A DNA stretch of 64,000 bases from Escherichia coli. GTDB lineage: Bacteria; Pseudomonadota; Gammaproteobacteria; Enterobacterales; Enterobacteriaceae. A program made the translations under genes and the position numbers. Location: assembly GCF_002854065.1 (NCBI RefSeq), contig NZ_CP024152.1. One strand, 5' to 3'. The first letter of the stretch is position 1; each line of letters starts with the position of its first letter. The notes beneath the pieces were generated by a model, which saw only the letters and a list, made by a program, of their open reading frames with translations, ran no database searches and was not told the origin of the DNA. Positions 26,243 through 58,186 of this stretch are shown here, one piece after another.

Positions 26243-26261
26243 GATAAGCTCCCCCCATAAC

Positions 26262-27095: not shown

Positions 27096-27203
27096 TCAGT
27101 CGACAAGTTCCCGGATCAGTTCCAGAACAGCAATCAGCGCGTTTGCAACGGCAACTACTGCCCTGAGAACGATGATTAACAGATTAATCATCCGCTTCTC
27201 CAT
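27096..27203 (-). CDS. Candidate type I toxin, DinQ/TisB-like hydrophobic peptide (35 aa, or 31 aa from the ATG at 27191)
   Basis: Manual translation of the minus strand gives MEKRMINLLIIVLRAVVAVANALIAVLELIRELVD; GGAG sits 6 nt before the internal ATG; single predicted TM helix with a charged C-terminus; not in the 60-aa ORF track. Confidence 0.4.
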   Translation of the reverse strand: MEKRMINLLIIVLRAVVAVANALIAVLELIRELVD

Positions 27204-27449
27204 CACTGGAGGAAATCACCGTTGCTTACTCTTACATTGCCTGTCACAACGGCACTTTCAGTGTTAGTTGAAAAGAGACTTCCTCCTGCCAGAGCACTGA
27301 ACACAGCACCACCTGTTTGTTCAGCCAGGACTTAAAATCTTGCATCCATAGTCCCGATGGATATCACGGCAGAAGTGTCGCCAGACAGAGCTAACCTGCG
27401 GATTATAAGGATGGTTGCTATCAAATGAACAGCTCGCTATTATAAGAAC

Positions 27450-27537
27450 GTTAGTTGAAAAGAGATTTCCTCCGGTCAGGGCCACCCACTCTGTAACGGA
27501 ACAGTAAAAAAACCGACCTCACCAGTCGGTTTTTTTA
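27450..27537 (+). ncRNA. Candidate antisense sRNA (putative antitoxin) for the 27096-27203 peptide gene
   Basis: Sigma70-like -35 TTGCTA (27415-27420) and -10 TATTAT (27438-27443); intrinsic terminator hairpin plus T7 at 27511-27536. The transcript carries GTTAGTTGAAAAGAGATTTCCTCC, a near-exact copy of 27262-27285, so it would be complementary to the opposite-strand mRNA leader. Confidence 0.3.
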
Positions 27538-27689
27538 CATCTGTTGTTTCTCAAAATCCGCCCAACATGCCCGTCACACCGGGGAAACTCATGCTCTGAA
27601 TCAGAACCAACCATCTCAACTTTGCCGTCTCCTGAAAAAACTGGCACATTCAGTTCGATAACTACCCATAAATACAGAGAGAAAATCCG

Positions 27690-27941
27690 ATGTCAGAAAA
27701 GTGGAGTAAAGAATTCGACTCTTGCTTTCAGGTGGGGAGCATAGAAGAAATTGCAGATGCTCTCGAGAAACGCAGCGGAAGCGAGGAAAATGCGTTAGCC
27801 ATGCTGGCAATGACAGCCTTCACACTCATGACCCGACGTGGTATCTGCGAAATGCAGAACGTGGCCCCCGATGGCAAAGGCATTCGGCTGGAGCTAATCG
27901 GCTTCAGGGAAAATGAAACAATACCGGATACGCTTCATTGA
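27690..27941 (+). CDS. Hypothetical protein (83 aa)
   Basis: ORF with a weak RBS; ends just before the bidirectional terminator at 27981-28003. Confidence 0.35.
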   Translation: MSEKWSKEFDSCFQVGSIEEIADALEKRSGSEENALAMLAMTAFTLMTRRGICEMQNVAPDGKGIRLELIGFRENETIPDTLH

Positions 27942-27980
27942 AGAAGAAAGGGCGCAATGAGGTCAGCCTTCGCAACAAAG

Positions 27981-28003
27981 CGGCGGCAGAAAACCTGCCG
28001 CCG
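27981..28003. terminator. Bidirectional hairpin terminator shared by pndA and the 27690-27941 gene
   Basis: CGGCGGCAG-AAAAC-CTGCCGCCG perfect stem with T-rich flanks on both strands. Confidence 0.55.
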
Positions 28004-28012
28004 TGTTGCCCG

Positions 28013-28165
28013 TTAACGTTTAACTTCGTAGGCTAACGTTGCCACAAGCACTGTGTTTCCCTGCTGGAGCCGGAGTCCGCAAAGCGAATCCCTCACCATC
28101 CAGACAAAACACAGAATCGTCACACAGATGACGATTAACATCATTAAAAACGTTCGCTGTGGCAT
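28013..28165 (-). CDS. pndA: PndA, Hok-family type I toxin (50 aa)
   Basis: Manual translation: MPQRTFLMMLIVICVTILCFVWMVRDSLCGLRLQQGNTVLVATLAYEVKR, with the Hok-family pattern of a TM helix followed by SLC and AYE. Below the ORF-track size cutoff. Confidence 0.8.
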   Translation of the reverse strand: MPQRTFLMMLIVICVTILCFVWMVRDSLCGLRLQQGNTVLVATLAYEVKR

Positions 28166-28223
28166 CATAGCCCCTCCATTGCCTTACGGCGGTTATCGGG
28201 CTACTATAATGTTGTCTAGGCAT
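28020..28223 (-). CDS. pndC: PndC, Mok-like overlapping reading frame enabling pndA translation
   Basis: Overlapping frame (ORF 28020-28358) with an ATG at 28223; hok/mok/sok architecture. Confidence 0.5.
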   Translation of the reverse strand: MPRQHYSSPITAVRQWRGYDATANVFNDVNRHLCDDSVFCLDGEGFALRTPAPAGKHSACGNVSLRS

Positions 28224-28280
28224 TACAGTAGAGCCCTTGGTTGATTGATAAAAAAATCTCCAGGGGCTTTCTGCTGTATA
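28217..28280 (+). ncRNA. pndB: PndB, Sok-like antisense RNA (approximate)
   Basis: Plus-strand -10 TATAAT at 28205-28210; the transcript would be antisense to the pndC start region; imperfect hairpin plus U-rich tail near 28230-28280. Confidence 0.4.
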
Positions 28281-28437
28281 TGGTTTAGTTAACAAAGAGA
28301 GCCAGTGTTCCACTGAGCAAAACCAGTAGCTATTCATGCTTACAATTATCTTCTCCATATCTGAAATAACTCAAACAGCCCAATAGAAACATATTGTTAC
28401 ATCTAAGATCTTGAAAAGACCTCTTTGAGAAATCAAT

Positions 28438-29424
28438 ATGAGATCACGGTATGTTGATAGGATAATATATATGAAGAAACTATTGATTCGATTAATACCT
28501 GATGCAATATATGAGGCTCTGGAAAAGACAGCTCTGCATTCTGAACGCTCCCTGGAAGCACAGGCCAGATATATCCTTAGTTGCTCCGTAGATAATGAAA
28601 AACAATTAACTGGTGGTGAACGCTATCAAAGAGAAATAACCGCGCGTCTTAATCAAGCGTTATCAGAAGCTAATGAGGTCATAACAGCCATTAATCTTGT
28701 TCCCGCAAGAATTGCAGAACAATTAGGCCATCATGACGCCATAGAATCCGAAAATTGGTTCACCGGAAATGCTGTTCCTAGCTTTACAGAGCTTGACGAA
28801 TTAAGCGATATCTTTGGATGCTCTCCAGATTGGTTAAAGTTTGGCGAAAATGTACCTTATCCAAAGAGTTCTAAAGGAAGGATAAACTGGAATCGTGGCG
28901 GAGAAAAAGATATCGATGCACTTTTAGAGCCTGACAACAAAGGTCGTAAAGTCTCATCTATTCATATTTTCAGGGTAAATGAATCTGGCAATATACTAAT
29001 ACTGAGAGAATTTGAAAACAGCATAACTACAGATTTTTTCTCAACAAACCTTTACTTATCAGACAAAGAAAAAATAGGACAGGGCGGATTCCACGACCTG
29101 GTCGATTTCCTTGTAATTTTACAATCCCTTTATTTAAAATATATAAATAGCAATCTGTTAGTGAAAAGCTATAACATTAGCCAATATGTACTGGATTCCT
29201 GTTATAAGAGCGGAGAAAAGCACCCCATAACTATATGTAGTGCAGGTGAGACAAGTACCTGGTGGGAAGACATATGGCATGAAGACATGATAGCTCAATC
29301 GAGGAATAATGAGTCCTACTTCTGGGATGGTGACAAACCTCTTATTGATAGCCTTCATAAAGAACTTCAAAAAAATAACAGATTAAAGCCAAACAGTGAG
29401 TTAGATATGCCACTAATTGGTTAA
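28438..29424 (+). CDS. Low-GC hypothetical protein with N-terminal ribbon-helix-helix-like region, paralogous to TraE (328 aa)
   Basis: About 38% GC; Arc/MetJ-like N-terminus (LIPDAIYEALEKTALHSERSLEAQARYIL); shares the SPDWLKFGENVPYP motif with TraE (NPDWLNGHENYPIA). Confidence 0.5.
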   Translation: MRSRYVDRIIYMKKLLIRLIPDAIYEALEKTALHSERSLEAQARYILSCSVDNEKQLTGGERYQREITARLNQALSEANEVITAINLVPARIAEQLGHHDAIESENWFTGNAVPSFTELDELSDIFGCSPDWLKFGENVPYPKSSKGRINWNRGGEKDIDALLEPDNKGRKVSSIHIFRVNESGNILILREFENSITTDFFSTNLYLSDKEKIGQGGFHDLVDFLVILQSLYLKYINSNLLVKSYNISQYVLDSCYKSGEKHPITICSAGETSTWWEDIWHEDMIAQSRNNESYFWDGDKPLIDSLHKELQKNNRLKPNSELDMPLIG

Positions 29425-29641
29425 ACACCAATTAAAGATTATCTAGCTAAAACAACATCGTACACGCATACTGCAAAGCCCTTGGTGAGTTAATAGAAGA
29501 ATTACTAAGGGCTTATAAAAAATATATACCCCCACATTGGTGACACATTAAAATATTTTTTGTTGATGTGTTACCAGCCTGACCCAAAAACAATTTTTAA
29601 TCTTTCCGTTCGATTTAAATTCCAGAAATGGAGACTTTGTC

Positions 29642-30850
29642 ATGTCTTACAATCGACAGCCTGTCGCAGAAGATCCTATGCAGATATGGGGCGCTGTTGG
29701 TGTCCTTCTTATCCTGCTGCTGTTCGTCATATGGTTATTCTTGCCGGAAGTGGTTTACACCAGCTGCCTGATTCTTCATACCTTATGGGGACTGGTCGAC
29801 TGGGGACCATTTCATAACTATGCAGCACCACGATACAACCTGCTTGCCATGACCGGTAACAACGCCGCCAACATAAGCTATAGCCAGTGGGTTAACGTCA
29901 TGGAACAGACCATAGGTATTCTGTGGATGTACCTCTTACCTGTGACACTCTGGTGTTTGTGGGAATGGTATCAACATCCGGGACAAAGCCGTTTCACCCG
30001 CAGACCAGTAGATATTACCCGACTGCCACACATCTTTGCTTCGTTATCCCCTGCTATCGCCCCTGTACTGGCAGATGGTGATCCGAAAAAACTCTTTCAT
30101 GGTGGTAAACGACCTGAACGGCGGGTTGCTCTCACCCCGGAAGCATTTGTCGAACAGCATACTCTCATCACCAATATGCAGCTCGATGTTGCAGCTGCAA
30201 GACGATGTTTCATGGCCCAGTTGGGTAAACCTTTAACGTCCTGGAAAGACATGGCACCACATGAAAAAGCGCTCTTTGCCATATTTGGCCTTCAGTATTT
30301 CCTGGATGATCGGAAGGCAGCATTAAAGCTCATGGATACACTGAACCTCTCATGCAGAATTAAAAGCAAACGGGACAGCGGGAAATTCTGTACCCCTGTT
30401 TATTCACTGGCCAAATCAGCTTTCCAGAGAGTGATTAAAAGCAACGGAGCACAGCAATGGCTGAAACAACATCGCTACGTCCGCAGTGGGCTGGTCTGGC
30501 TGTATGCACATGACCTGCGGCTTACGCCACCCAACTGGATTTGGCTGAAAGGCGTGGACAGAACGCTGTTTTATGCATTACACCGCGCCAATACCACGAA
30601 AGGATTTATTGAAGGCGCTGGCGTGGTGGCCGTTGCACGTGCAGAGGCCGAAGCCATGCGTTTTGGTCTTCCCTGCCCTGAACCCTGTGTTGATGAAGCG
30701 GTGGAAGGCTTACGGCGGGATATGCTCAGTCTCGGTCTTATCTGGGATGAACCACAACCAGATCGCGACCGGAAACGCCGCATCCTGACCAACTGGTCCC
30801 TCACCGACGACATCCTGCCCCGCACACCTGCTACAGACAACGAATTCTGA
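29642..30850 (+). CDS. trbA: TrbA membrane protein (402 aa)
   Basis: GGAG RBS; N-terminal TM helices; size and position match R64 trbA. Confidence 0.65.
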   Translation: MSYNRQPVAEDPMQIWGAVGVLLILLLFVIWLFLPEVVYTSCLILHTLWGLVDWGPFHNYAAPRYNLLAMTGNNAANISYSQWVNVMEQTIGILWMYLLPVTLWCLWEWYQHPGQSRFTRRPVDITRLPHIFASLSPAIAPVLADGDPKKLFHGGKRPERRVALTPEAFVEQHTLITNMQLDVAAARRCFMAQLGKPLTSWKDMAPHEKALFAIFGLQYFLDDRKAALKLMDTLNLSCRIKSKRDSGKFCTPVYSLAKSAFQRVIKSNGAQQWLKQHRYVRSGLVWLYAHDLRLTPPNWIWLKGVDRTLFYALHRANTTKGFIEGAGVVAVARAEAEAMRFGLPCPEPCVDEAVEGLRRDMLSLGLIWDEPQPDRDRKRRILTNWSLTDDILPRTPATDNEF

Positions 30851-42889: not shown

Positions 42890-42921
42890 TCCCGAATCCT
42901 CCATAGTCACATGTTCTGCGG

Positions 42922-43248
42922 CACCGGGCGGTGCCGTGCCTCCATAAAAGCCGGGCGATAAGGCGGGGATGCATAGGGCGCAAGGGAAGCCGCAGCCTGA
43001 CGCACACGGCTGGCGGGAGTTGGAGGGTGAGACCGCGAAATCTGAGCGGGTGAACGACCGGAAAATCACGGCAGACGGGAAGGAGGGACCGGGTGACCGC
43101 AGCGGCGAAGCGTACCCTTGCATCCCTGCCAGCCCGGCTAAGATGGAGGCACGGCACAGCCCGCACACGACGCTGAGGCCACAGAGCTGAAAACCCACAA
43201 GGCCATGCCCCGCATGGCCGGGTAAAAGCGGAGCCGCCGGCGACTTCC
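42922..43248. promoter_or_regulatory. Structured repeat family 2, copy A (ssDNA promoter candidate upstream of ardA)
   Basis: Perfect 15-bp inverted repeat GTGCCGTGCCTCCAT (42931-42945) / ATGGAGGCACGGCAC (43143-43157) about 200 bp apart, plus further paired arms; second copy at 49870-50192. Confidence 0.55.
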
Positions 43249-43351
43249 TTATTCCGGCGAGTGCAGAGGACACGCCGCATGACCTCCAGACCACCCCTGA
43301 TATGAAACGATCATGATCGGCGTGTCCCTGCGTAAAATATACATGTCTGGT

Positions 43352-45149: not shown

Positions 45150-47114
45150 TCAGGCGGCATCAGCCAGGTTATCGGCGCGTTCAGTGGCATCCGTCTGTGG
45201 ACGTGGTGAACACATCCAGCCAGGCACCCAGCGGTTGTCTTTCATATGGAACTCTGCATGTTCAGCGGCATCGCCTTTCTTCATCTTCTCTGCGTCCCGT
45301 GCGGCACCGGACAGTCCGGCATCATTCAGGGCTGCGATAATCTGCGGCTTTTTCAGGTGTCCGAAGAAGTTTGCTTTCGTCGGCTGCCACCAGTCGCGCA
45401 TGTGAAAACCGATGGCGCTCTCCAGTGAGTCAAGCGGACTGCGTGACGTGCGACCACACTCGCGGGTCTGGACACCGTTAAGGCTGCATGCGGTGCAGAA
45501 ACTGAGCAGGGATAACAGCACCTCCTGACTGAGTGACAGGAACGTCGTCATGTCCCGTGACCATCCCTCCGGTAACAGGGCCGCAAGACGGGCTTTTTCT
45601 GCCATCAGCGCCAGGAATGCGGCACCTTCCTTCCCTGACGGCGCATCGCTGGTCAGCGAATAATGTTTACATTCCAGGCTGATTTGTGCTGGTTTACTGT
45701 ACGCTCCGCTGTCAAACACATTCAGGCAGAGCGTCCATGCCAACAGTGCCAGAGATTTGTCCGGTTGCTGCATCAGTGCTGCCTGGACTGCCAGCGTGCG
45801 TTCGGAAGACATTTTCGTCAGCAGTGGCAGACTGATTTCCTCCACTGACGCTTTTTCCTGCACCTGTTCCGTGCGGTCAGCGTCGTCAGCCGCATCATCC
45901 TCACTGCGTAACTGCACACCACGCTGGACACATACGTTTCCATAACGCCAGGACACCACCACTCCACCTTCGGCACGCATCTCCGGCGTCCACGCTCTGA
46001 CCTTCGCCATGCAGCGCATCAGCTTCATTTCTGCTTCCAGCAGGTCAGATTCCTCACACTGGTTTTCCAGCGCGTCGTAACGTGCCATCAGTTCGTTCAG
46101 ACGTTCTTCTTCCGCCTCGGTCAGCACCGCTTCCGGCTCCGGCAGACAGCGGTATGTTCCGGCATCCTCACGGCACTCACCGACAGGCTCCATGCGTCCG
46201 GCGCACCATTCCCAGCCTTCGGCTTCCCGAAGGAACTCTGCGACAGCCTGGAGTTTTTCCAGCAGGGCGGCATCGAGCGCCACGCAGTCCACATAGCCAC
46301 CCTCGTCGTCGCTGAACAAATCGGTGCGCAGTTCGTCTGGCGAGAAGGCATCAGCCCCCACGAAGCGGAATTTACTGTTCCCCGCCACCGCCACTTCACT
46401 TTCCGTAATCAGATTGCGGATAACCCGCACATCCGGTTTACCGCCCCATCCCGACTGACAGGCAGCTTCAAACACCTGCACCTGACGCGCGGTGTCGTTC
46501 TCCAGCGCCAGCGCCTGACAGTGTTCGGTGGTGATGCGGTCTTCTGCCAGCGCATCGAGGATGACAGGCGCAAGGTCAGCCAGTTTCAGCATTCGCTGAA
46601 CGTGGCGGGGTGAATAGCCCAGCAAATCACCGATTTGTGCAGGTGTTTTGCCTTCCTGCGCCATTGCGCGGAATCCGGCAATCTGTTCAGCAGGGTGCAT
46701 ATCCCGACGATGACCGTTTTCAGTCATTGATGCCGCCGTCGCCAGCTCCTGCGGAATGACCTTCACACGGACAGGCCAGTCAGCCGGAATGATGCCACGC
46801 TCTGCCAGCATGTTGAGTGCAGCCAGTCGGCGACCACCTGCGGCGACACCGTAACGGTCACCAGGCAGGGTATGCACGACCAGATTCTGCAACAGGCCAA
46901 CGCCCTTAATGGACTCCGCCAGTTCGCTGACGGACTCCGCAGAATACGGCACCGTGCGCACATTCAGCGGTGATTTAATCAGCGAGGCCAGCGGCACGCT
47001 CACTTCCTCCGTCTGCGCCAGCAGGGCAGACAGGACAGTTTCCTGCGTTTTTGCAGATTTACGGCTTGCTTTGCGGGTGGTTTCTGGTTCACACTTCGTT
47101 ACAGGCATAATCAT
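45150..47114 (-). CDS. ParB-like nuclease-domain protein (654 aa)
   Basis: N-terminal ParB/Srx-type motifs (GLLQNLVVH, AGGRRLAAL); no adjacent ParA partner. Confidence 0.65.
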   Translation of the reverse strand: MIMPVTKCEPETTRKASRKSAKTQETVLSALLAQTEEVSVPLASLIKSPLNVRTVPYSAESVSELAESIKGVGLLQNLVVHTLPGDRYGVAAGGRRLAALNMLAERGIIPADWPVRVKVIPQELATAASMTENGHRRDMHPAEQIAGFRAMAQEGKTPAQIGDLLGYSPRHVQRMLKLADLAPVILDALAEDRITTEHCQALALENDTARQVQVFEAACQSGWGGKPDVRVIRNLITESEVAVAGNSKFRFVGADAFSPDELRTDLFSDDEGGYVDCVALDAALLEKLQAVAEFLREAEGWEWCAGRMEPVGECREDAGTYRCLPEPEAVLTEAEEERLNELMARYDALENQCEESDLLEAEMKLMRCMAKVRAWTPEMRAEGGVVVSWRYGNVCVQRGVQLRSEDDAADDADRTEQVQEKASVEEISLPLLTKMSSERTLAVQAALMQQPDKSLALLAWTLCLNVFDSGAYSKPAQISLECKHYSLTSDAPSGKEGAAFLALMAEKARLAALLPEGWSRDMTTFLSLSQEVLLSLLSFCTACSLNGVQTRECGRTSRSPLDSLESAIGFHMRDWWQPTKANFFGHLKKPQIIAALNDAGLSGAARDAEKMKKGDAAEHAEFHMKDNRWVPGWMCSPRPQTDATERADNLADAA

Positions 47115-47985: not shown

Positions 47986-48053
47986 AAGAACCTCCTGACT
48001 GAAAGATGTGAGATAAACCGGATACCGGCGACGGGACGTTCATGTGCCCCTTC

Positions 48054-48551
48054 AGAGGAGCGAAAGCTCCTCCTGCCGTCCACTTCACAGGGGTTTCTCC
48101 CCGCAGTGGACCTTTCCGATGGGGGCCCGTTTACCGCCTCACGGGACAGCTGTCCGGGGGCGGACGCAAAATTTTTAGCCGGGTTCATGGCTAAAAATTT
48201 TGTGGCCGGTGCATCTCACCCTGGACAGATGGAACGGGAGGGGGTTACGTCTGCCCCCCGGAAAGTCCACAGCGGGAAACAGGCCGCAGGGGTGGCGGCA
48301 GGAGGGAGGACTGCTGCGCCATCAGGCGCAGTTTCCTCACACACCGTCAGGTGTGCAGGGAGCGCAGGTCACGGCGCGACAGGGGCGGCGCGACCGGAAC
48401 GGTCGCTGCAAGCCGGGTTTTCACGCATCGGACCGTAGCGGCAGCCCGAAACCGCGCCAGCGGGTTCGGCGGAGACTGGCGGGTGCGCCAGCAGCTGCCT
48501 GTCGGAGTCGGGCCTGACGACCGGATGCCGCCAGGCAGCCGGGAGCCGAAG
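48054..48551. promoter_or_regulatory. Structured repeat family 1, copy 3 (ssi/Frpo-like), upstream of ssb
   Basis: About 500-bp near-duplicate of 41711-42207, positioned immediately upstream (minus sense) of ssb. Confidence 0.6.
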
Positions 48552-48753
48552 TGGGCGCAATAAAAGACAGCCAGAAACGGTGACAGTGTCACGGAATATC
48601 ACACCTGTTCCCTGCATACAGCCATACACTACCTTCTGACCGGAAAGCCGGGCCGGCAGCGCCGCAGGCGCTGCACCCCGCATTTCCGGCAGGCGTCAGC
48701 CTGCCAGGGGTTTTCGCGCGGGCTGACAGGCGGCCTCCACCGCCTGCCCTGTA

Positions 48754-48945
48754 TCACCTGTTTCTGCTGCCCTGAAGGATATAGTGACCACCGAGGAAAA
48801 CCGCCTGCTGATTCGCCACAAAATCGCAGATTTCATCAACAATCTGCGCAGTGGTGAGCGGTTTCTGCCCCATTTCACGACGCCGCGCATTAATCACGGC
48901 TTTGTAATTGCGCAGAATTTCGCGGGTTTCTGTGCTGATATTCAT
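48754..48945 (-). CDS. Hypothetical small protein (63 aa)
   Basis: ORF coupled to the upstream 140-aa gene. Confidence 0.35.
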   Translation of the reverse strand: MNISTETREILRNYKAVINARRREMGQKPLTTAQIVDEICDFVANQQAVFLGGHYILQGSRNR

Positions 48946-49364
48946 GACATGTGCTCCCCGTCCAGCGCCTGTAACACAACGTCCATTGCTTCGCGTTCTT
49001 CCCTGACGAACGCATCACCGTCGCCCCCGTTCTCACTCCCGACGGCATACAGGCGCTTCATTTCACTGCCTGCCAGCGCCAACACTTTTTCCAGCATCAC
49101 CGCCGGGACTGTCACCTGACGGCTGGCGCGCTTTTCTTCCATCAGTTCACGAACAACGTCGTGAACAACGCTGACATCCGCACCATGCTCAAAGGCATCG
49201 TCCAGCCGCTGCATGACGGTTTCCAGCTCATCGTCTGTCAGACTCCAGTCCTGGGCTATGTGACGCACATCCCCACGGGTCAGCACCACGGCAAAAACGC
49301 ATTCACTGTCCGGCACGTCTGTATCCAGCACTTCGCGGATAATTTCTTTAACAGTACAGTACAT
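48942..49364 (-). CDS. Hypothetical acidic leading-region protein (140 aa), paralog of 51063-51497
   Basis: Shares N-terminal architecture and the RQVTVPA motif with the protein at 51063-51497. Confidence 0.5.
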   Translation of the reverse strand: MYCTVKEIIREVLDTDVPDSECVFAVVLTRGDVRHIAQDWSLTDDELETVMQRLDDAFEHGADVSVVHDVVRELMEEKRASRQVTVPAVMLEKVLALAGSEMKRLYAVGSENGGDGDAFVREEREAMDVVLQALDGEHMS

Positions 49365-49410
49365 GTTCTCGTCTCCTTTACAGGGGCGGCATTGCCGCCC
49401 CGTCCGTTAA

Positions 49411-49836
49411 TCAGTCCAGAGCCGCGTAAATCGCGTTGCATTCGGGGTGAAATTCGATGTGACGCCACAACTGCGCATCGCGCATCCGGTAAAGCTGGGT
49501 CAGTCCTGCATCCCCGCTGTCGTGGTACAGCCACAACTGGCGGTTAATCACAAGGGAGGTCAGGATGATGCCTGCGGCATCAGCACTCACGGTACGGTCA
49601 AACCAGTTTGCACCGTTCACCATGTGGAAACGGTCGCCATCCGGCATCATGTAACCGCCACCGTCCGGCAGGCGGATGAAGTGCCAGAAGCCTCCCTGAT
49701 ATTCCGGCATCATTTTTTGCGCCAGCGCGTACACATACGCCTCGGCATACAGAAAATCGTTGCCAAACAGATACGGCAGAAAGGAGAGACGGTCGCACTC
49801 TTCAACATTCAGAGTGACAGGTTTCGCATATTGCAT
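49411..49836 (-). CDS. KlcA/ArdB-family antirestriction-like protein (141 aa)
   Basis: Family-typical motifs EYQGGFWHF and [10 protein letters not shown]; located directly downstream of a structured repeat, like ardA. Confidence 0.65.
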
Positions 49837-49869
49837 GATGTTTTCCTCCGTTGTTCACATATTCCGCGA

Positions 49870-50192
49870 CACCGGGCGGTGCCGTGCCTCCATAAAAGCC
49901 GGGCGAACAGGCGGGGATGCAGGGGCGCAAGGGAAGCCGCAGCCTGACGCACACGGCTGACGGGAGTTGCAGGGTGAGACCGCGAAATCTGAGCGGGTGA
50001 ACGACCGGAAAATCACGGCAGACGGGAAGGAGGGACCGGGTGACCGCCGCGTTCATTTTACCCTTGCATCCCCGCCAGCCCGGCTAAGATGGAGGCACGG
50101 CACAGCCCGCACACGACACGGCGGCCACATAACTGAAAACCCACAAGGCCATGCCCCGCATGGCCGGGTAAAGCGGAGCCGGCGGCGACTTC
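49870..50192. promoter_or_regulatory. Structured repeat family 2, copy B (ssDNA promoter candidate)
   Basis: Near-duplicate of 42922-43248 including the 15-bp inverted repeat arms. Confidence 0.55.
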
Positions 50193-50247
50193 CTTTGTGC
50201 TCTGTCCGGGACCGGCAGGAAAAAGGCGGGGATTTTCCCCGCCATCA

Positions 50248-51018
50248 TCAGCCCCTGATTTTTGCCAGGGCATCCGCCACGCTACGGATTTCGGCCCGGG
50301 CTTCCCGGACAACTTCCCGCAGAACACAACGGTCAAACCACCGGCGGGGCGGTTCATCCGGTATACGCAGCACATCGCAGGCCAGCCCACTGGACAGGAT
50401 ATGCTCAATACAATCGCTGACCAGATACATTTCCACCGCCGAAAAACGTGCGCCCCGGTTCAGGATGGCATCGAGCACCACGGGCAGGTTTTCGTCATCT
50501 TCATCAAGCCAGCAGGGGTAATCGCTTTCCTTCACGACCAGGCGAAAGCGGCGCGTCTGGCGGGTCAGTAACGTCTGACCGGTTGTGGTCAGCGCCGCCC
50601 GGATACGCCGCGTATCTTCTGCCACCTGGTAACTGACACAGCGTACTGCATCGCGTACCGCATCAAGAACTGCCCTGATTTCGTCCTCTGCCAGCCACTC
50701 ACCGGCATACGGAAAAGACACCTGTGTTCCGTCTGCCGGAAGTACCGGCAGCGACTGCCACTGACTGCCGGACAGTACCAGTTCCGCCCCGGTTCCGGTC
50801 AGTTTCTGAATGGCGGAGGCCAGGTGCGGCGGCAGCACGCCATCGTGGCGGTTAACGAGTAACGTCGCCAGCCGGGGCGCATCCAGCCGCACGTAAATGC
50901 TGATCCAGCCCGGATAGTTCGGATTTCGCTGGTCAACATCCGTCTCTTCCGGCCAGCCCTGCGCCAGCAGCAGGTTACGGGCGTGGCGACAAATCAGTGC
51001 ATTCAGCGTTTCGTTCAT
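50248..51018 (-). CDS. Hypothetical leading-region protein (256 aa)
   Basis: ORF with no recognisable motif; reads toward repeat family 2 copy B. Confidence 0.45.
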
Positions 51019-51062: not shown

Positions 51063-51497
51063 TCAGTCGGTTTCGCGTGTGTTGTTTTTCAGCAGGGCGC
51101 GGGCCTGATTAACCACCGCCTGTCGGCGGGTGACGCATTCCGGGACGGCGAGGTCGTTATCACGGGCGGCCCACTCACGTTTCCACAGTGCCTGTTCAGC
51201 GGTCTGAATCAGGGACGCCAGCAGTTCAGCAGGGACGGTCACCTGGCGGTTTTCTCTCACGTTATTGATGATCTCCATCGCCACGCCGGAAGAAATACCG
51301 GACTCAATCCGCTGGTCTTCCGGGATGTCCTCCAGGCGCGCCAGGACGGTCCTGATTTCATGATCGGACAGGGAAATATCCATTCCGTCAGCGAGGGCCT
51401 GAATCTCTTCAGGGGACCAGACAACCAGCATCAGCGGCGTGTCTCCCTGATACTTTGCTGCCAGCTCCCGGCAGAGTATTTCGCATGTTCCGTACAT
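51063..51497 (-). CDS. Hypothetical acidic leading-region protein (144 aa), paralog of 48942-49364
   Basis: ATG at 51497 with GGGGAG RBS; RQVTVPAELL motif shared with the paralog. Confidence 0.5.
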   Translation of the reverse strand: MYGTCEILCRELAAKYQGDTPLMLVVWSPEEIQALADGMDISLSDHEIRTVLARLEDIPEDQRIESGISSGVAMEIINNVRENRQVTVPAELLASLIQTAEQALWKREWAARDNDLAVPECVTRRQAVVNQARALLKNNTRETD

Positions 51498-51508
51498 ACT
51501 CTCTCCCC

Positions 51509-51730
51509 TCAATCTTTGAAGCAGGAATCCAGTTCCAGAATTTCGGTATATGCCTCCATCAGGAGGCGGTTTGCGCGAAACAACGTCTGACGCACCAGAC
51601 GTTCCGGCAGGGTGTCAGCATTAAAGCTGTACCGCCGCTCCATCTCATTCATGGTTGTACGCAGGTCGCACATGGCATTGGCCACCTCCGCCACTTCGGC
51701 GCGAAGTTTTTCATGTCCGGCATAGTTCAT
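51509..51730 (-). CDS. Hypothetical small protein (73 aa)
   Basis: ORF immediately downstream of the methyltransferase gene. Confidence 0.35.
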   Translation of the reverse strand: MNYAGHEKLRAEVAEVANAMCDLRTTMNEMERRYSFNADTLPERLVRQTLFRANRLLMEAYTEILELDSCFKD

Positions 51731-52414
51731 TTACGCAGCCTCCGGCATAAACCAGTCATCATTCGCGGCCCCCTGCTGCATGGCCCGCTGTACGGCAGCC
51801 AGACGTTGCTGTCCGGCACGGTGATACTGCTCAAGCAGCTCGATACCGATATACCGGCGTCCGGACTGGAGGGCGGCGACGCAGGTTGAGCCGCTGCCTG
51901 CAAACGGGTCCAGCACAATCGCGTTCGGGTGTGTGAAGCTCTCAATCAGCGGTTGCAGGCTGGTAACGGGCTTTTCCGTCGGGTGATGACGGTTGCCCGA
52001 ATATTTCCAGCCCAGCACGTCCGGCAGCGGGTTTTGTGGCAGACGTGGACGGCCTTTTGCCAGGATGTAGGCGCATTCGTGGCGATAGCCCACATATGCG
52101 GCCTTCGATGTGTAGTTTTTGGTAAACACCAGGTGTCCGACCACGCTGAATCCCGCATTTTTCCAGGCGGCCATAAAGCGATCGACGCGGTTCCAGCCGT
52201 AGAAGCTCACCATCAGCGCGTCTTTTTTGAGTACGCGGTACATTTCATTACAGGCCGGTTGCAGCCATTCATCGGTTTTATCGCCGGCGATGGTGCGCCC
52301 GGAACGGTCACGAAAACCGACGAGATATGGCGGGTCAGTTAATATGAAATCAATGGCGTTATCAGGGATACGCGTCATAACATCGATGCAGTTACCAAGG
52401 ACAAAACGGGACAT
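51731..52414 (-). CDS. Orphan DNA methyltransferase, N6-adenine/N4-cytosine beta-class (227 aa)
   Basis: Motif IV DPPY precedes the AdoMet motif I FAGSGST; no adjacent restriction endonuclease. Confidence 0.75.
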   Translation of the reverse strand: MSRFVLGNCIDVMTRIPDNAIDFILTDPPYLVGFRDRSGRTIAGDKTDEWLQPACNEMYRVLKKDALMVSFYGWNRVDRFMAAWKNAGFSVVGHLVFTKNYTSKAAYVGYRHECAYILAKGRPRLPQNPLPDVLGWKYSGNRHHPTEKPVTSLQPLIESFTHPNAIVLDPFAGSGSTCVAALQSGRRYIGIELLEQYHRAGQQRLAAVQRAMQQGAANDDWFMPEAA

Positions 52415-52797
52415 ACGAAACTCCTTCTCTTACAGAGGGCACCGGGAGGGCACCCCTGTGGTGCCCGTTCCCCGCTGCCTGTGGGCTGTTCACCGCGTCC
52501 GGTAACGGGTCAGGCCGACCGTGGAATATCGCAGCCGTCGTCTTTTTGACGGCGAGAATATGCCGCGAAAGCGGCTTGAAGGGCGTTCATCAGAAAAGGG
52601 CGACAGGCTGGCGTACACTGTCATCGACGCCAGCCGGGAGCGGTAAAAGCGCCCGTCCCGTGCCCGCCGGACGCGGGACACTGACCACAGGCAGCGTTTA
52701 TGCCGCGCCGCGTCAGCCGGCGCAGTAAAAAGAGGAGCACGGCGACATCCTTTGTCGGAAAAGAAGCGGGCGGTTTCCCGCCCGTCTCCGTCATACT

Positions 52798-53553
52798 TCA
52801 TCCGCCATAATGCGCCACATTGTCGACTATCCACGCAGGTCCGGTGACTTCCGGCAGCTCATCGTCATCTGTCGGGGAAGACCATTCCAGTTCCCCCCAC
52901 AGCACATCAACAAGCTCTCCGCGCTCATACAACTGCCAGCCACAGAAATCACAGCCCTGTTCGGCGTACCAGTGCTCCAGCGTGCAGCCGAAAAGGCGGC
53001 TTAATTCTGCAACAACGTCGCTCTCCGGCTGACACCACGGCGTGTCGAAATCTACCTGAATGAAGTTTTCCCCCTGACTGCTGATATTCAGGTCATACCC
53101 ACAAGGCCACTTCACGCCATACCGTTCTGTATACCAGTGATATGCAGAAGGAACACCGTTCAGAACACCGCCGTTAAAGCCATTCACTTCAATATCCAGG
53201 CGGGTCGGCAAAACCGTCAGCAGGTCAAACGGCATGGTTTTTTCCGGCAGTACGTTGTCACACAGACGGTTCCACCACACCGATACATCCTCGTTACTCC
53301 AGAAGCCACACCAGTCACCTCTCTTTGCGGTGAAAAGTGCGGTGATGGTATCCCTGACATCGTCCGGTAATCCTTCCCAGCGACGCTGTTCAGTACCGCT
53401 CTGCAGCCAGAGTTCATGCAGCATCAGGCAGTTTTGTTCATCCAGTAGCACACCGTTCTGCAGGTGTGTCAGCCAGCGTGTGAACGCGATATTCTCCGGC
53501 GATACAACACCACGTCCGGCAGCCGTCAGTCCGGGGCACGGTTCAAACTGCAC
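52798..53553 (-). CDS. Hypothetical Trp-rich leading-region protein (251 aa)
   Basis: ORF with GTG start; no recognisable catalytic motif. Confidence 0.4.
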   Translation of the reverse strand: MQFEPCPGLTAAGRGVVSPENIAFTRWLTHLQNGVLLDEQNCLMLHELWLQSGTEQRRWEGLPDDVRDTITALFTAKRGDWCGFWSNEDVSVWWNRLCDNVLPEKTMPFDLLTVLPTRLDIEVNGFNGGVLNGVPSAYHWYTERYGVKWPCGYDLNISSQGENFIQVDFDTPWCQPESDVVAELSRLFGCTLEHWYAEQGCDFCGWQLYERGELVDVLWGELEWSSPTDDDELPEVTGPAWIVDNVAHYGG

Positions 53554-54800: not shown

Positions 54801-56073
54801 TGTTTGCACTGGCTGATATCAACAGTTTCTACGCCTCATGTGAAAAAGTTTTCCGCCCGGACCTTCGCAACGAACCGGTCATCGTACTCAGCAATAACGA
54901 TGGCTGTGTGATCGCGCGCAGCCCGGAGGCAAAAGCCCTTGGCATCAGAATGGGGCAGCCCTGGTTTCAGGTGAGACAAATGCGCCTGGAGAAGAAAATA
55001 CATGTATTTTCCAGCAATTATGCGCTGTACCACAGCATGAGCCAACGGGTTATGGCTGTTCTGGAGTCGCTTTCTCCCGCAGTTGAGCCCTACTCAATTG
55101 ATGAAATGTTCATTGATTTGCGGGGGGTGAACCGTTGCATCTCTCCGGAGGTTTTGGTCATCAGCTCAGGGAACAGGTAAAGAGCTGGACAGGACTCACC
55201 ATGGGGGTGGGCATTGCGCCTACAAAAACGCTGGCTAAAAGTGCACAGTGGGCAACAAAGCAATGGCCACAGTTTTCCGGTGTGGTCGCGCTGACGGCAG
55301 AAAACCGTAATCGGATCTTGAAGCTACTGGGGCTGCAGCCAGTTGGTGAGGTCTGGGGAGTAGGACGCAGACTGACGGAAAAGCTGAATGCACTGGGTAT
55401 TAACACAGCACTGCAGCTGGCGCAGGCTAACACGGCATTCATCCGGAAAAACTTCAGCGTCATTCTTGAGCGTACGGTACGCGAACTCAACGGCGAGTCC
55501 TGCATATCCCTGGAAGAAGCACCACCGGCAAAACAGCAGATTGTCTGTAGTCGCAGTTTTGGTGAACGAATCACAGACAAAGATGCCATGCACCAGGCTG
55601 TTGTTCAGTATGCAGAGCGGGCCGCAGAGAAACTACGTGGGGAGCTTCAGTATTGCCGGCAGGTGACGACATTTGTACGGACATCCCCCTTTGCAGTAAA
55701 AGAACCCTGTTACAGCAATGCCGCTGTGGAAAAGCTTCCATTGCCCACACAGGACAGCCGGGACATTATTGCCGCCGCATGCAGAGCCTTAAACCATGTC
55801 TGGCGTGAAGGGTACCGCTATATGAAGGCAGGAGTCATGCTGGCTGATTTCACACCATCGGGTATAGCGCAGCCGGGATTATTTGATGAAATCCAGCCCC
55901 GTAAAAACAGTGAAAAGTTAATGAAAACACTCGATGAACTGAACCAGTCGGGAAAAGGGAAAGTGTGGTTTGCGGGGCGAGGAACCGCCCCTGAATGGCA
56001 AATGAAACGGGAAATGTTGAGTCAGTGTTATACAACTAAATGGCGAGATATTCCCCTGGCCAGGCTGGGTTAG
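54800..56073 (+). pseudogene. impB: impB (UmuC-like Y-family polymerase) interrupted by a -1 frameshift in a T run near 55152-55155
   Basis: ORF 54800-55180 (MFALADINSFYASCEKVFRPD...DEMFIDLRGVNRC) and ORF 55135-56073 (FGHQLREQV...) are consecutive parts of a UmuC-like protein in different frames; adding one T to GTTTTG restores continuity. Confidence 0.6.
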
Positions 56074-56074
56074 T

Positions 56075-56491
56075 TCAGTCATCTCCGAACATATTTTCAG
56101 CGTTTCTTCTGGTCTGGTCTTCACCGTCATTTCTCGACAGACTCTGCTCTGTAAGAGGAGTACTGCAATCCACAGACGTATGGAGACCAGATTGTTTTTC
56201 CAGTAATTCAAGCAATTTCTTTTCAACCGAAAAAGCACCTGGTATCACGCTGGAAATCACCTTATTAATATCATCCAGAGTCGTATTTTCTGTCAGTAAC
56301 TCCGATATCAGCAAAGGAAGACGTTTATCTATAGCTGCAAACGCCGCACCAGTAACTAACATCGCGCGCATGAAACGTCCCCGCTCCTTCAGTTTTTCAT
56401 TTGCAATGAGCTCATCTGCTATCTTATCTCCTGTCCGTTCATCCGGGAAAAGTTCAAATGAGCAGCGTCTGGATTTATTTTCATCACTCAT
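56075..56491 (-). CDS. parR: ParR/StbB-like partition adaptor protein (138 aa)
   Basis: Small gene immediately downstream of, and overlapping, the ParM-like gene. Confidence 0.5.
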   Translation of the reverse strand: MSDENKSRRCSFELFPDERTGDKIADELIANEKLKERGRFMRAMLVTGAAFAAIDKRLPLLISELLTENTTLDDINKVISSVIPGAFSVEKKLLELLEKQSGLHTSVDCSTPLTEQSLSRNDGEDQTRRNAENMFGDD

Positions 56492-57464
56492 TAGTCACAC
56501 CACCTTTCATTTTTATCATTCCCATGACTAAATCAAACTGCGGGGATGAGCTCAGATAAAAGCGCTCATCAGGAACCTTAGTCAGGTTCTTCACAGCCTC
56601 GGCCACAATTTCAGCCCCACCACCAACACACATTACATGTGTATAGTCGGTGAAACGGCTGATGACATCATTAACTCGTTTAATAAGCAACTTCTGCCGT
56701 TCATTGATAACATTAATGATAGACTCACGCTGTTCAGCATTATAAATGCGACGGGAAAGGTAGTCAGGTTCATTACGGTGCACAATGATATTGTCAGCCT
56801 GGAATGAGCTCACTCTTGTATTAGCATGTACAGCCATCTGTTCCTTAACCCCGGATGTAATCAGGGACACGCCGATATTTGGATCACACCAGGTTTTTGT
56901 AATCCCTGTCATTTTGCTACGAACATGCGACACATCAAGAGTTGTACCACCGAGATCTACGATCAAAAGGGATTCATCATCCTCAAGCCCCGCAAGAACA
57001 CTGAAACCAGCGGGAATACTTTCAGGAAGAACGGAAACACTGCGAATAACAAATGCATCACTCCCCTGCACCCGTACTTCACGCATCACATTTTTTTTCT
57101 TTCTTTCAATGTTTTGCTTATTTTTCTGATTGTTGGCGTCAAGGTATTCAGAGATCGGCAATGTGACGATGACATCAACAGGCTGCGCTTTCAGGCCGGT
57201 CTGCTGTAGCGCATGCTGAATGGCCACAACATTCACATCACTGTACTGATAGCGTGTTTCAGTCGTTACGACAGCATCAGCACTTAATGGATCAAATGAA
57301 AACTTCTCGCCGTCGATCTCGTAATTAGCCGGGGCAGCATCATCCAGTAAACTAAAAGACCATTCCGGTTTAAAGCTGTTAGGGCTGATTAACGTTTTCA
57401 CGTCACCATCCTCCAACCAGGCAAGTTTAATGTTGGTAGAACCATCATCAATAAAGATTTTCAT
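56484..57464 (-). CDS. parM: ParM/StbA-like actin-type segregation ATPase (326 aa)
   Basis: Actin-fold phosphate motifs (KIFIDDGSTNIKLAW, VDLGGTTLD, CVGGGA); ATG at 57464. Confidence 0.7.
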   Translation of the reverse strand: MKIFIDDGSTNIKLAWLEDGDVKTLISPNSFKPEWSFSLLDDAAPANYEIDGEKFSFDPLSADAVVTTETRYQYSDVNVVAIQHALQQTGLKAQPVDVIVTLPISEYLDANNQKNKQNIERKKKNVMREVRVQGSDAFVIRSVSVLPESIPAGFSVLAGLEDDESLLIVDLGGTTLDVSHVRSKMTGITKTWCDPNIGVSLITSGVKEQMAVHANTRVSSFQADNIIVHRNEPDYLSRRIYNAEQRESIINVINERQKLLIKRVNDVISRFTDYTHVMCVGGGAEIVAEAVKNLTKVPDERFYLSSSPQFDLVMGMIKMKGGVTNE

Positions 57465-57720
57465 AACCAGTCTCCGTTGCTCATAAACAAATAGAAAAAA
57501 CAAACATGCTTCATACATGCAATGTATATTCAATTATAATGAAAAAACGGTCTTTCTGAAAGGACAAATGCAACATAAAAACACGATAAATTGCATGTAC
57601 ATTGTACACACAACTTTAAGACCAGAGGAAATCATAGATACAAAAACATTATGAAGGTTATATGTGATACATAAATGCAATATAAAAACATCGTGGACAT
57701 CATGGTTCAGGTTAGGGGAA
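57465..57720. promoter_or_regulatory. AT-rich centromere/promoter-like region upstream of parM with repeated TGCA-containing motifs
   Basis: Repeated ACATGCAATGTA / AAATGCAACATA / AATTGCATGTACATTGTACA / AAATGCAATATA elements in an AT-rich leader. Confidence 0.35.
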
Positions 57721-57877
57721 AAGGAATGAAATGGTGAAACTGAGAGGAAAGGAAAGCGGTGACGAATCATGTCACCATAAACAGAAAGATGTCTAATGGG
57801 GACTCTTTAGGTACGTGAAGAATCCCCATAACGCATTTAAAAGACACACATCAGATACCTTTAAGGTATCCGATAGT

Positions 57878-58186
57878 TTATTGACCTATTGCACCATCAC
57901 GTTCAAGCTTCTCTCTTATAGCCTCAATAATATATGAGCTAAAATCCAGAGATGTTTTACTGGTCGCTTTAAGTTCCGCATGAGCTTCAAAATACGACAG
58001 CGGTATGGCCTTAAGATTCTTAGCCTTCGTCCTGGCAGCCACGGGACGACCTGAAACTTCCTCTGCACCTTCATTTGGCTGAGACGGGGCTGTTGCTGTT
58101 ACGGCAGAAGAAGAAGTTTGTAATCTGGCAGAATCCACCAGGTTTTTCAGTTTTTCAGCCTGTGCACTAAATTTCGCTTTGCTCAT
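57878..58186 (-). CDS. ParG-like small centromere-binding protein (102 aa)
   Basis: Small ORF directly downstream of parA; flexible N-terminus and C-terminal helices consistent with ParG/RHH partition proteins. Confidence 0.5.
   Translation of the reverse strand: MSKAKFSAQAEKLKNLVDSARLQTSSSAVTATAPSQPNEGAEEVSGRPVAARTKAKNLKAIPLSYFEAHAELKATSKTSLDFSSYIIEAIREKLERDGAIGQ

What the first reader, a model, noticed from the sequence alone, without database searches (positions are those of the whole stretch)
48942..49364. Paralogous pair of acidic leading-region proteins sharing an RQVTVPA motif
The proteins at 48942-49364 and 51063-51497 share N-terminal architecture and an identical RQVTVPA(E/V) core, with diverged acidic tails. 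Each is followed by a small co-transcribed ORF (48754-48945 and, for the second, the block toward 50248-51018). Duplicated and diverged anti-defence-like genes in a leading region suggest specialisation against different host targets.
Basis: seen in the sequence. Interest (0 to 1): 0.35.

Follow-up and report, generated by a model that had tools for sequence, protein, structure and literature searches.

The report
Two DUF1380 paralogues in plasmid leading region
The two genes are real, anciently duplicated members of the uncharacterised DUF1380 family found in the first-transferred region of thousands of enterobacterial plasmids; each copy is tied to a different anti-restriction operon, and their function is still untested.

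Summary
The proteins at 48942-49364 (copy A) and 51063-51497 (copy B), both on the minus strand, are homologous: 32% identity over 111 aa, E=9e-10, and z=13 against shuffles. They share the motif RQVTVPA, which is the conserved core of Pfam DUF1380.

The window is an IncI-gamma/K1 plasmid, 100% identical to pWP2-W18-CRE-03_2. The genes lie about 11.6 and 13.7 kb from oriT and are transcribed towards it.

None of this is new. RefSeq calls both genes "DUF1380 family protein" on plasmid F and on thousands of other plasmids. Samuel et al. 2024 list them as uncharacterised leading-region families 7 and 14.

What this analysis adds:
- Copy B is always the third gene of a methyltransferase (M.EcoGIX-like)–YubE–DUF1380 module.
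- Copy A always directly follows the anti-restriction gene klcA/ardB.
- The family tree splits exactly along this context (185 of 200 bootstraps).
- Each operon has its own strongly folded upstream region. For homologous plasmids these regions are published as single-stranded-DNA promoters.

Both proteins are small, acidic and all-helical. No informative relative was found by sequence or fold. Homologues are dispensable in laboratory matings.

The most likely role is a non-enzymatic accessory factor for plasmid establishment or anti-restriction, one specialised per module. This is inferred, not shown. Interest is modest.

The parts
48942..49364 (-). DUF1380 paralogue A (also called YcjA/YcgC/YubJ/YfeC; Hp12 of pESBL). 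140 aa, pI 4.41. Second gene of the klcA operon.
   Evidence: ORF and translation. Pfam DUF1380 at 22.6 bits, E=1.2e-4, below the gathering score of 26. PHROG 9024 at 8.7e-6. RefSeq product WP_000271744.1 'DUF1380 family protein'. Present at 90% identity or more in at least 5000 PLSDB plasmids. dN/dS against plasmid F is 0.19. AF2 model pLDDT 79.
49101..49121 (-). Codons for RQVTVPA in A (residues 82-88). This is the family-wide R-x-V-T-V-P-A core, placed between the N-terminal domain and the C-terminal helical hairpin.
   Evidence: R82 and V84 are nearly invariant across 31 diverse members.
51063..51497 (-). DUF1380 paralogue B (also called YcgB/YubF/YfcB; Hp10 of pESBL). 144 aa, pI 4.65. Third gene of the methyltransferase operon.
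   Evidence: Pfam DUF1380 at 179 bits, E=4.8e-53. PHROG 9024 at 3e-71. dN/dS against F is 0.38. AF2 model pLDDT 86. RefSeq marks it 'frameshifted', but the indel lies in the spacer upstream of the true ATG, so the 144-aa ORF is intact.
51228..51248 (-). Codons for RQVTVPA in B (residues 84-90).
49411..49836 (-). KlcA/ArdB-family antirestriction gene (YubI). First gene of the operon that contains paralogue A.
   Evidence: Pfam Antirestrict PF03230, E=1.5e-26. RefSeq 'antirestriction protein'. An Antirestrict gene lies immediately upstream of the A-type copy in all 6 lineages examined.
48754..48945 (-). 63-aa basic protein (YffA/Hp13). Its start overlaps the stop of A by 4 nt (ATGA), which suggests translational coupling.
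   Evidence: The protein is identical to the plasmid F protein WP_001027495.1. No family or PDB match. It is not conserved next to distant A-type genes.
49837..50224 (-). Strongly structured intergenic region upstream of klcA. Interpreted as a class 2 single-stranded-DNA promoter.
   Evidence: Single-stranded DNA fold of 49837-50250: -114 kcal/mol, z=-6.7. About 340 nt are roughly 93% identical to the region upstream of ardA at 42890-43351. This matches the class 2 klcA/ardA promoters mapped by 5' RACE in pESBL (PMC12672017).
50225..50243 (-). Intrinsic-terminator-like hairpin plus T-run, just after the 256-aa gene. Marks the end of the methyltransferase operon.
   Evidence: 8-bp stem, 7 G-C pairs, TTTTT.
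50248..51018 (-). 256-aa YchA/YubG-family protein of unknown function. Fourth gene of the methyltransferase operon.
   Evidence: PHROG 8919 at 7e-139. Listed as family 10 in Samuel et al.. Absent from several distant methyltransferase-YubE-DUF1380 modules.
51509..51730 (-). 73-aa YubE-family protein (Hp9). Second gene of the methyltransferase operon.
   Evidence: PHROG 4830 at 5e-34. Positional counterparts carry Pfam PF27407 YubE in every distant locus.
51731..52414 (-). Orphan N6-adenine DNA methyltransferase, a homologue of M.EcoGIX/YfeA. First gene of the operon that contains paralogue B.
   Evidence: Pfam N6_N4_Mtase at 1.9e-40. NCBIfam PRK13699 at 3e-151. M.EcoGIX is a single-strand-specific methyltransferase that protects pESBL from restriction in recipients (PMC7736820, PMC4288162).
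52415..52766 (-). Strongly structured region upstream of the methyltransferase gene. Interpreted as a class 3 single-stranded-DNA promoter.
   Evidence: Single-stranded DNA fold of 52415-52800: -112 kcal/mol, z=-9.1. The class is defined in PMC12672017.
52767..52784 (-). Terminator-like hairpin after the DUF1281 gene. Separates it from the methyltransferase operon.

Best explanation
These are two anciently diverged paralogues of one narrow, plasmid-borne family (DUF1380). They sit in the leading region of an IncI-complex conjugative plasmid.

Each lies in its own operon, and each operon is preceded by a long hairpin-forming region. In the homologous plasmids pESBL and F these regions act as single-stranded-DNA promoters that fire briefly when the plasmid strand enters a new cell. 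Copy B is the third gene of the operon [M.EcoGIX-like methyltransferase – YubE – DUF1380-B – YchA]. Copy A is the second gene of the operon [KlcA/ArdB – DUF1380-A – 63-aa protein].

Both proteins are small, acidic and all-helical, with no catalytic signature. Each has an N-terminal globular domain, the conserved R-x-V-T-V-P-A linker and a C-terminal hairpin of two long helices. The copies differ most in that hairpin.

The most likely function (inferred, not shown) is a non-enzymatic, protein-binding accessory factor for plasmid establishment or anti-restriction. Each copy would be specialised for its own module, with the hairpin carrying the specificity. The benefit would be conditional, appearing only in recipients with particular defences.

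Shown here: homology, purifying selection, operon anatomy, module-specific synteny and the matching tree split. Taken from papers: early induction of the two operons, and the anti-restriction roles of the methyltransferase and KlcA. Inferred: that the DUF1380 proteins bind partners, and what they bind.
For: - Homology: BLASTP E=9e-10 and shuffle z=13.3. Both copies match DUF1380 and PHROG 9024.
- Real genes: dN/dS against plasmid F is 0.19 for A and 0.38 for B. The 7-kb block holding both copies is at least 80% covered in at least 2271 PLSDB plasmids.
- Location: nikA/oriT is about 11.6 kb from A and 13.7 kb from B, and both genes point towards it.
- Operon anatomy: the upstream regions fold strongly as single-stranded DNA (z=-6.7 and -9.1). 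The klcA upstream element is repeated upstream of ardA. Terminators lie at 50225-50243 and 52767-52784, and no sigma-70-type promoters are found in 47.9-53 kb. In pESBL and F the operons encoding the KlcA and M.EcoGIX homologues are induced early in transconjugants, and the start sites of the six pESBL operons were mapped by 5' RACE (PMC12672017).
- Synteny: all 7 lineages of methyltransferase-linked copies show methyltransferase-YubE-DUF1380. All 6 lineages of A-type copies sit directly after an Antirestrict (KlcA/ArdB) gene. Sequence identity falls to about 20-35% across these lineages.
- Tree: the KlcA-linked versus methyltransferase-linked split has 185 of 200 bootstraps.
- Structure: both AF2 models have the same architecture. 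Clade-specific signatures sit in the hairpin: a 'GGGD' loop in the A type and 'W-x-x-E-W...VPE' in the B type.
- Conditional role: Hp10 and Hp12 of pESBL are non-essential for maintenance and transfer into laboratory E. coli. The same was true of M.EcoGIX until recipients carrying restriction systems were used.
Against: - No direct evidence exists for any activity or any binding partner.
- KlcA/ArdB and M.EcoGIX both work when expressed alone (PMC7736820; abstracts of the ArdB papers). The DUF1380 proteins therefore cannot be obligatory cofactors.
- KlcA occurs without an A-type gene (L005). The methyltransferase triad occurs without KlcA (L008).
- Tight linkage on a plasmid backbone can reflect shared descent and operon inertia, not functional coupling.
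- Gene-level induction of the two DUF1380 genes could not be read from the paper. Only operon-level statements were available.
- The models have modest pTM values (0.52 and 0.57), so the relative placement of the domains is uncertain.
Confidence: 0.45

Rival explanations
1. The two copies are independent anti-defence inhibitors, each blocking a different host immune protein, for example as acidic DNA or protein mimics. They simply ride in early-expressed operons and have no functional tie to the methyltransferase or to KlcA.
For: Both proteins are acidic: net charge -17 for A and -9 for B. Both are small, lack enzymatic motifs and lie in the leading region, which is enriched for anti-defence genes (PMC11541004). 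They are dispensable in laboratory matings. They have diverged in the part most likely to be a binding surface.
Against: No similarity to ArdA, Ocr, ArdB, anti-CRISPRs or PADLOC families. Samuel et al.'s own Foldseek screen against anti-CRISPR and anti-restriction structures gave 'NA' for family 7, and for family 14 only a few ArdB hits that look like mis-clustered KlcA. The perfect link between clade and upstream partner over deep divergence is not predicted by simple hitch-hiking.
Confidence: 0.25
2. They are small dimeric regulators. The R-x-V-T-V-P-A strand plus two helices would form a ribbon-helix-helix-like DNA-binding module that shuts off or tunes the early operons once the plasmid is double-stranded.
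For: The order strand-helix-helix after the motif. Weak Pfam RHH_5 matches in 4 members, best E=0.004, aligned to the motif plus the first helix.
Against: The RHH_5 hits are below threshold and none was found in the A-type members tested; the one hit examined was in a non-A member. hhalign against seven ribbon-helix-helix proteins gives under 2% probability, no better than unrelated controls. A profile search of PDB sequences finds no such protein. The helices are about 24 residues long, roughly twice the usual length. The proteins are acidic, and the C-terminal part of A has net charge about -5, which is unfavourable for DNA binding.
Confidence: 0.08
3. They are establishment factors that act on host physiology or on plasmid DNA processing and not on immunity. 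Examples would be modulating replication or repair proteins, or restraining the promiscuous methyltransferase. This would parallel the neighbouring ParB-like YfjB/HerB, which reprogrammes host transcription.
For: They share the early-expressed region with Ssb, PsiB and HerB, whose roles are not anti-restriction (PMC13370423). They are acidic helical proteins with no defence-related homology.
Against: There is no evidence either way. The specific linkage to two anti-restriction modules points more naturally to restriction evasion.
Confidence: 0.15
4. The similarity is a chance short motif and the genes are unrelated.
For: None beyond the low overall identity (23% in the global alignment).
Against: E=9e-10 over 111 aa. 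z=13.3 against shuffles. The same Pfam and PHROG families are hit. The predicted architecture is the same. Intermediate sequences bridge the two copies.
Confidence: 0.01

Closest known systems
Pfam PF07128 DUF1380 / PHROG 9024 (YcgB/YubF and YcjA/YubJ of F-like and IncI plasmids; Hp10 and Hp12 of pESBL)
   Same: Both window proteins belong here. Length (about 140 aa), the N-terminal MYGT, the R-x-V-T-V-P-A core and the genomic position match. RefSeq names both 'DUF1380 family protein' on F and on thousands of plasmids.
   Different: Nothing differs in kind. Copy A scores just under Pfam's gathering threshold (22.6 against 26 bits), because the Pfam model is built around the B type.
Leading-region uncharacterised families 7 and 14 of Samuel et al. 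2024 (Nature 635:186)
   Same: These are the same genes. Family 7 has 3957 members (DUF1380/YcgB/YubF), median 19th ORF from oriT. Family 14 has 3145 members (YcjA/YcgC/YubJ/YfeC), median 15th ORF. Both are on the T-strand orientation and both are leading-region enriched.
   Different: The table files them as two separate families and does not state that they are homologous. It labels them by contaminating neighbour names such as 'adenine-specific methyltransferase' and 'KlcA'. The module-specific linkage and the matching tree split are shown here.
Known plasmid anti-restriction proteins (ArdA and Ocr DNA mimics; ArdB/KlcA)
   Same: Small, acidic, leading-region, early-expressed, and dispensable without restriction pressure. 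Copy A is co-transcribed with a KlcA/ArdB gene.
   Different: No sequence or fold relationship was found. The charge density is lower than is usual for DNA mimics (from general knowledge). No activity has been tested.
Operons driven by single-stranded-DNA promoters in pESBL and F (Wen et al. 2025, NAR; classes 1-3)
   Same: Gene order and gene sizes match pESBL. The klcA and ardA upstream elements are near-identical copies of each other. The upstream regions fold strongly as single strands.
   Different: Promoter activity and start sites were not measured for this plasmid. They are inferred by homology.

Membership tests
DUF1380 (Pfam PF07128) | Match to the family HMM above the curated gathering score (26 bits) | tested here: met
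   Copy B: 179.4 bits, E=4.8e-53, covering positions 1-137 of 137.
DUF1380 (Pfam PF07128) | Match to the family HMM above the gathering score, tested for copy A | tested here: inconclusive
   Copy A scores 22.6 bits (E=1.2e-4), just under the cut-off, and covers HMM positions 1-102. Membership is supported by other routes: BLASTP to B at E=9e-10, PHROG 9024 at 8.7e-6, a joint profile that scores A at 165 bits, though this is partly circular because the profile includes A and its close relatives, bridging sequences and the NCBI name 'DUF1380 family protein'.
DUF1380 (Pfam PF07128) | Conserved R-x-V-T-V-P-A core between the N-terminal domain and a C-terminal two-helix hairpin | tested here: met
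   RQVTVPA is present in both copies. R and the first V are nearly invariant in 31 diverse members. Both AF2 models place the motif between the N-domain helices and two helices of about 24 residues.
Leading-region genes expressed from single-stranded-DNA promoters | Located within the first-transferred region and transcribed towards oriT | tested here: met
   nikA/nikB/oriT map to about 37 kb in the window. The genes from DUF1281 to ardA are all on the minus strand pointing towards oriT.
Leading-region genes expressed from single-stranded-DNA promoters | Long hairpin-forming element upstream of the operon | tested here: met
   z=-6.7 upstream of klcA and z=-9.1 upstream of the methyltransferase gene. 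The klcA element is about 93% identical to the ardA element, as described for class 2 promoters. The -35 and -10 boxes within the hairpins were not mapped here.
Leading-region genes expressed from single-stranded-DNA promoters | Transient induction in new transconjugants | not testable with these tools
   Reported at operon level for the pESBL and F homologues (PMC12672017).
Anti-restriction / anti-defence proteins (ArdA, ArdB/KlcA, Ocr, Acr) | Homology or fold similarity to a characterised anti-defence family | tested here: not met
Anti-restriction / anti-defence proteins (ArdA, ArdB/KlcA, Ocr, Acr) | Measured inhibition of a defence system | not testable with these tools
   No experiment was found in the literature. 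TnSeq shows only dispensability in laboratory E. coli.
Ribbon-helix-helix superfamily | Significant profile match to ribbon-helix-helix families or structures | tested here: not met
   RHH_5 matches only at E of 0.004 or higher, in 4 members; none in the A-type members tested. hhalign probability under 2%, the same as controls. No such protein in the PDB profile search.

The most novel reading that the evidence does not exclude
DUF1380 would be a modular adaptor family whose two ancient clades physically partner two mechanistically different anti-restriction effectors. The B type (with YubE) would direct or restrain the promiscuous single-strand methyltransferase on the entering strand, or shield the newly m6A-marked DNA from modification-dependent (Type IV, Mrr-like) restriction. 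The A type would couple KlcA/ArdB to its still-unknown cellular target. From general knowledge, ArdB/KlcA has long been reported to work in vivo but not in vitro.
Probability: 0.12. Interest if true: 0.6.

Novelty: already known. Interest (0 to 1): 0.3.

Why it matters
These two families are among the most common genes of unknown function in the leading regions of IncF and IncI resistance plasmids. Copy A alone is found in at least 5000 PLSDB records. They are ranked 7th and 14th by family size among the 100 largest leading-region families of Samuel et al. 2024. If they help plasmids escape restriction, or help them establish, they bear on how resistance plasmids widen their host range.

The practical value of this analysis is a sharper experiment. 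The copies should be tested together with their operon partners (methyltransferase plus YubE for one, KlcA for the other), in recipients that carry defence systems, and not alone in laboratory strains.

As a finding it is ordinary: a known, annotated gene pair with no new mechanism demonstrated.

Tried and rejected
1. Function by homology. Pfam, NCBIfam, PHROGs, PADLOC and phmmer against PDB gave only DUF1380 and 'unknown function' families.
3. Ribbon-helix-helix idea. It was prompted by the motif and by weak RHH_5 hits.
4. Fusion proteins as clues to partners. The longer database entries (with TrbI, KlcA or YubE fused) are single-member clusters and look like assembly or gene-calling artefacts.
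5. Phage origin. IMG/VR holds only one partial locus. A scan with the diverse alignment A3 could not be run because it has no conserved stretch long enough.
6. Literature. There is no functional paper on DUF1380, YubF, YubJ, YcgB, YcjA or YfeC. One search with the yub* names was swamped by unrelated words.
7. The downstream 63-aa ORF as a conserved partner. ORFs after distant A-type genes are not homologous to it.
8. Rfam. No RNA family matches in 42-54.5 kb.
9. Pseudogene status of copy B. RefSeq flags it as frameshifted. This was rejected as an artefact of the N-terminally extended 184-aa reference model.

Full report
**What the window is**

The 7-kb stretch around the finding is 100% identical to E. 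coli plasmid pWP2-W18-CRE-03_2 (NZ_AP021916.1). PLSDB types this plasmid as conjugative, replicon IncI-gamma/K1, MOBP relaxase, MPF_I. More than 5000 PLSDB plasmids from Escherichia, Klebsiella, Salmonella and Shigella match the stretch at 90% identity or more, and at least 2271 of them cover 80% or more of it. nikA, nikB and oriT map to about 37 kb in the window. The block from 53.5 kb down to ardA at about 42.4 kb is entirely on the minus strand and is transcribed towards oriT.

**Checking the observation**

- Copy A (48942-49364, 140 aa) and copy B (51063-51497, 144 aa) are intact ORFs with good ribosome-binding sites.
- BLASTP gives 32% identity over 111 aa, E=9e-10.
- The local alignment score is 101. 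Across 2000 shuffles the mean was 30 and the maximum 55, so z=13.3.
- RQVTVPA is identical in the two proteins, but its codons differ at four synonymous sites. Selection on the protein keeps the motif, not recent gene conversion.
- B matches Pfam DUF1380 at 179 bits. A matches at 22.6 bits, just below the cut-off. Both hit PHROG 9024.
- A joint profile finds exactly these two copies in the 64 kb.
- dN/dS against the plasmid F orthologues is 0.19 for A and 0.38 for B, so both are under purifying selection.

Three details need correcting. Only the C-terminal part of A is acidic. The gene after B encodes 256 aa, not a small protein. RefSeq flags copy B of this plasmid as 'frameshifted', but this is an artefact: the indel lies in the spacer upstream of the real ATG and matters only for an over-extended 184-aa reference model.

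**How much is already known**

RefSeq already names both genes 'DUF1380 family protein' on plasmid F, and annotations of many of the other matching plasmids do the same. In Samuel et al. 2024 they are families 7 (3957 members) and 14 (3145 members) among the 100 largest leading-region families. Both are listed as uncharacterised. In pESBL they are Hp10 and Hp12, and TnSeq scored both as non-essential for maintenance and for transfer. No paper on their function was found.

The family is narrow. Only 282 clusters at 50% identity, out of 1.84 billion proteins, reach E of 0.001 or better, and many of those are fragments. IMG/VR holds a single partial locus.

**Anatomy and operons**

Reading in the direction of transcription, the layout is:

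1. A terminator at 52767-52784.
2. A strongly structured region (52415-52800 folded; z=-9.1 as single-stranded DNA).
3. The methyltransferase gene (an M.EcoGIX homologue), then the 73-aa YubE gene, DUF1380-B and the 256-aa YchA gene.
4. A terminator at 50225-50243.
5. A second structured region (z=-6.7).
6. KlcA/ArdB, then DUF1380-A, then a 63-aa ORF whose start overlaps A's stop by 4 nt.
7. The large structured element upstream of ssb (z=-11.8).

No sigma-70-type promoters are found anywhere in 47.9-53 kb. About 340 nt upstream of klcA are roughly 93% identical to the region upstream of ardA. Wen et al. 2025 describe exactly this for their 'class 2' single-stranded-DNA promoters in pESBL. They place the M.EcoGIX promoter in 'class 3', map six start sites by 5' RACE, and report up to about 500-fold early induction of leading-region genes in transconjugants; the operons encoding the KlcA and M.EcoGIX homologues are among those induced, in F as well. 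The two paralogues therefore belong to two separate early operons. Their own expression is inferred from operon membership.

**Module-specific linkage (the new observation)**

I looked up the genomic context of diverse family members, down to about 20-35% identity.

- Methyltransferase-linked copies: all seven lineages show methyltransferase–YubE–DUF1380. These are the window, F, L003/4, L005-7, L008-10, L011/12 and L015. The module persists even where YchA is missing, and in L008 even where the next operon is ardA instead of klcA.
- A-type copies: all six lineages sit directly after an Antirestrict (KlcA/ArdB) gene. These are the window, F, L003/4, L011/12, L014 and L016.
- A neighbour-joining tree separates all KlcA-linked proteins from all methyltransferase-linked proteins, with 185 of 200 bootstraps. 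One old duplication was followed by stable residence in two different modules.
- The linkage is not obligatory in the other direction. KlcA occurs without an A-type gene in L005.

**Structure**

The two AF2 models (pLDDT 79 and 86; pTM 0.52 and 0.57) share one architecture. There is an N-terminal helical domain of about 80 residues, then the R-x-V-T-V-P-A segment, then a hairpin of two helices of about 24 residues each. Clade-specific signatures lie in the hairpin. The A type has a Gly-rich acidic 'GGGD' loop. The B type has 'W-x-x-E-W ... V-P-E'.

Fold searches returned nothing informative. A ribbon-helix-helix reading of the C-terminal part was tested and is not supported.

**Interpretation**

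The secure part is that this is a known pair of DUF1380 paralogues, each embedded in a distinct early anti-restriction operon. M.EcoGIX protects the plasmid from restriction in recipients, and KlcA/ArdB inhibits Type I systems.

The mechanistic part is inferred. The proteins are small, acidic and non-enzymatic. Their most variable region is a helical hairpin, and each clade has stayed with one partner module over deep divergence. The best guess is that each is a protein-binding accessory factor specialised for its module and useful only in some recipients.

Against an obligatory-cofactor role, both the methyltransferase and KlcA work when expressed alone, and linkage on a plasmid backbone may simply reflect shared history. 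A regulator role and a host-physiology role are less likely.

**Verdict**

The pair is already annotated and catalogued, so its novelty is low. The module-specific linkage and the matching tree split are a modest refinement that tells experimenters what to co-express. Interest is about 0.3.

Noticed in passing
window 51063-51552 (-); RefSeq NZ_AP021916.1 17519-18005: RefSeq annotates copy B on this plasmid as a 'frameshifted' pseudogene. The 144-aa ORF that starts at MYGT is intact. The 1-2 nt indel lies in the spacer between the yubE stop and the true ATG, so it disrupts only an over-extended 184-aa reference model that starts inside yubE.
   Followed up: yes
window 49850-50190 and 42890-43240 (-): A repeat of about 340 nt, roughly 93% identical, lies upstream of both klcA and ardA. 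It corresponds to the 'class 2' single-stranded-DNA promoters described for pESBL by Wen et al. 2025.
   Followed up: partly
window 47986-48753: The intergenic region upstream of ssb folds very strongly as single-stranded DNA (-221 kcal/mol, z=-11.8), as expected for an Frpo/ssi-type element. RefSeq places a 104-aa 'hypothetical protein' (window 48369-48683, -) inside it, which may be a spurious call.
   Followed up: partly
window 52490-52801 (-): RefSeq annotates a 103-aa 'hypothetical protein' (record 16267-16578) that overlaps the structured region upstream of the methyltransferase gene and the terminator at 52767-52784. It may also be a spurious ORF inside a promoter element.
   Followed up: no
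window 45150-47114 (-): The 654-aa ParB-like protein is the counterpart of F YfjB. A July 2026 preprint (PMC13370423) renames YfjB as HerB, a CTP-binding ParB-like protein that reprogrammes host transcription after transfer.
   Followed up: partly
window 48754-48945 (-): The 63-aa basic protein that overlaps the stop of copy A is identical in protein sequence to the plasmid F product (WP_001027495.1), although dS is 0.19. This points to very strong purifying selection on a protein with no family or structural match.
   Followed up: partly
window 49384-49402 (-), between klcA and copy A: A perfect G+C-rich hairpin (GGGGCGGCAATGCCGCCCC) without a T-run sits in the 46-nt spacer between klcA and DUF1380-A. 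A similar one follows the 63-aa ORF, at about 48720-48745. They could be mRNA stabilisers or attenuators.
   Followed up: no
window 24000-30000 and 56000-58000: These stretches have markedly lower G+C (0.40-0.44) than the leading region (0.57-0.60). They were not examined.
   Followed up: no
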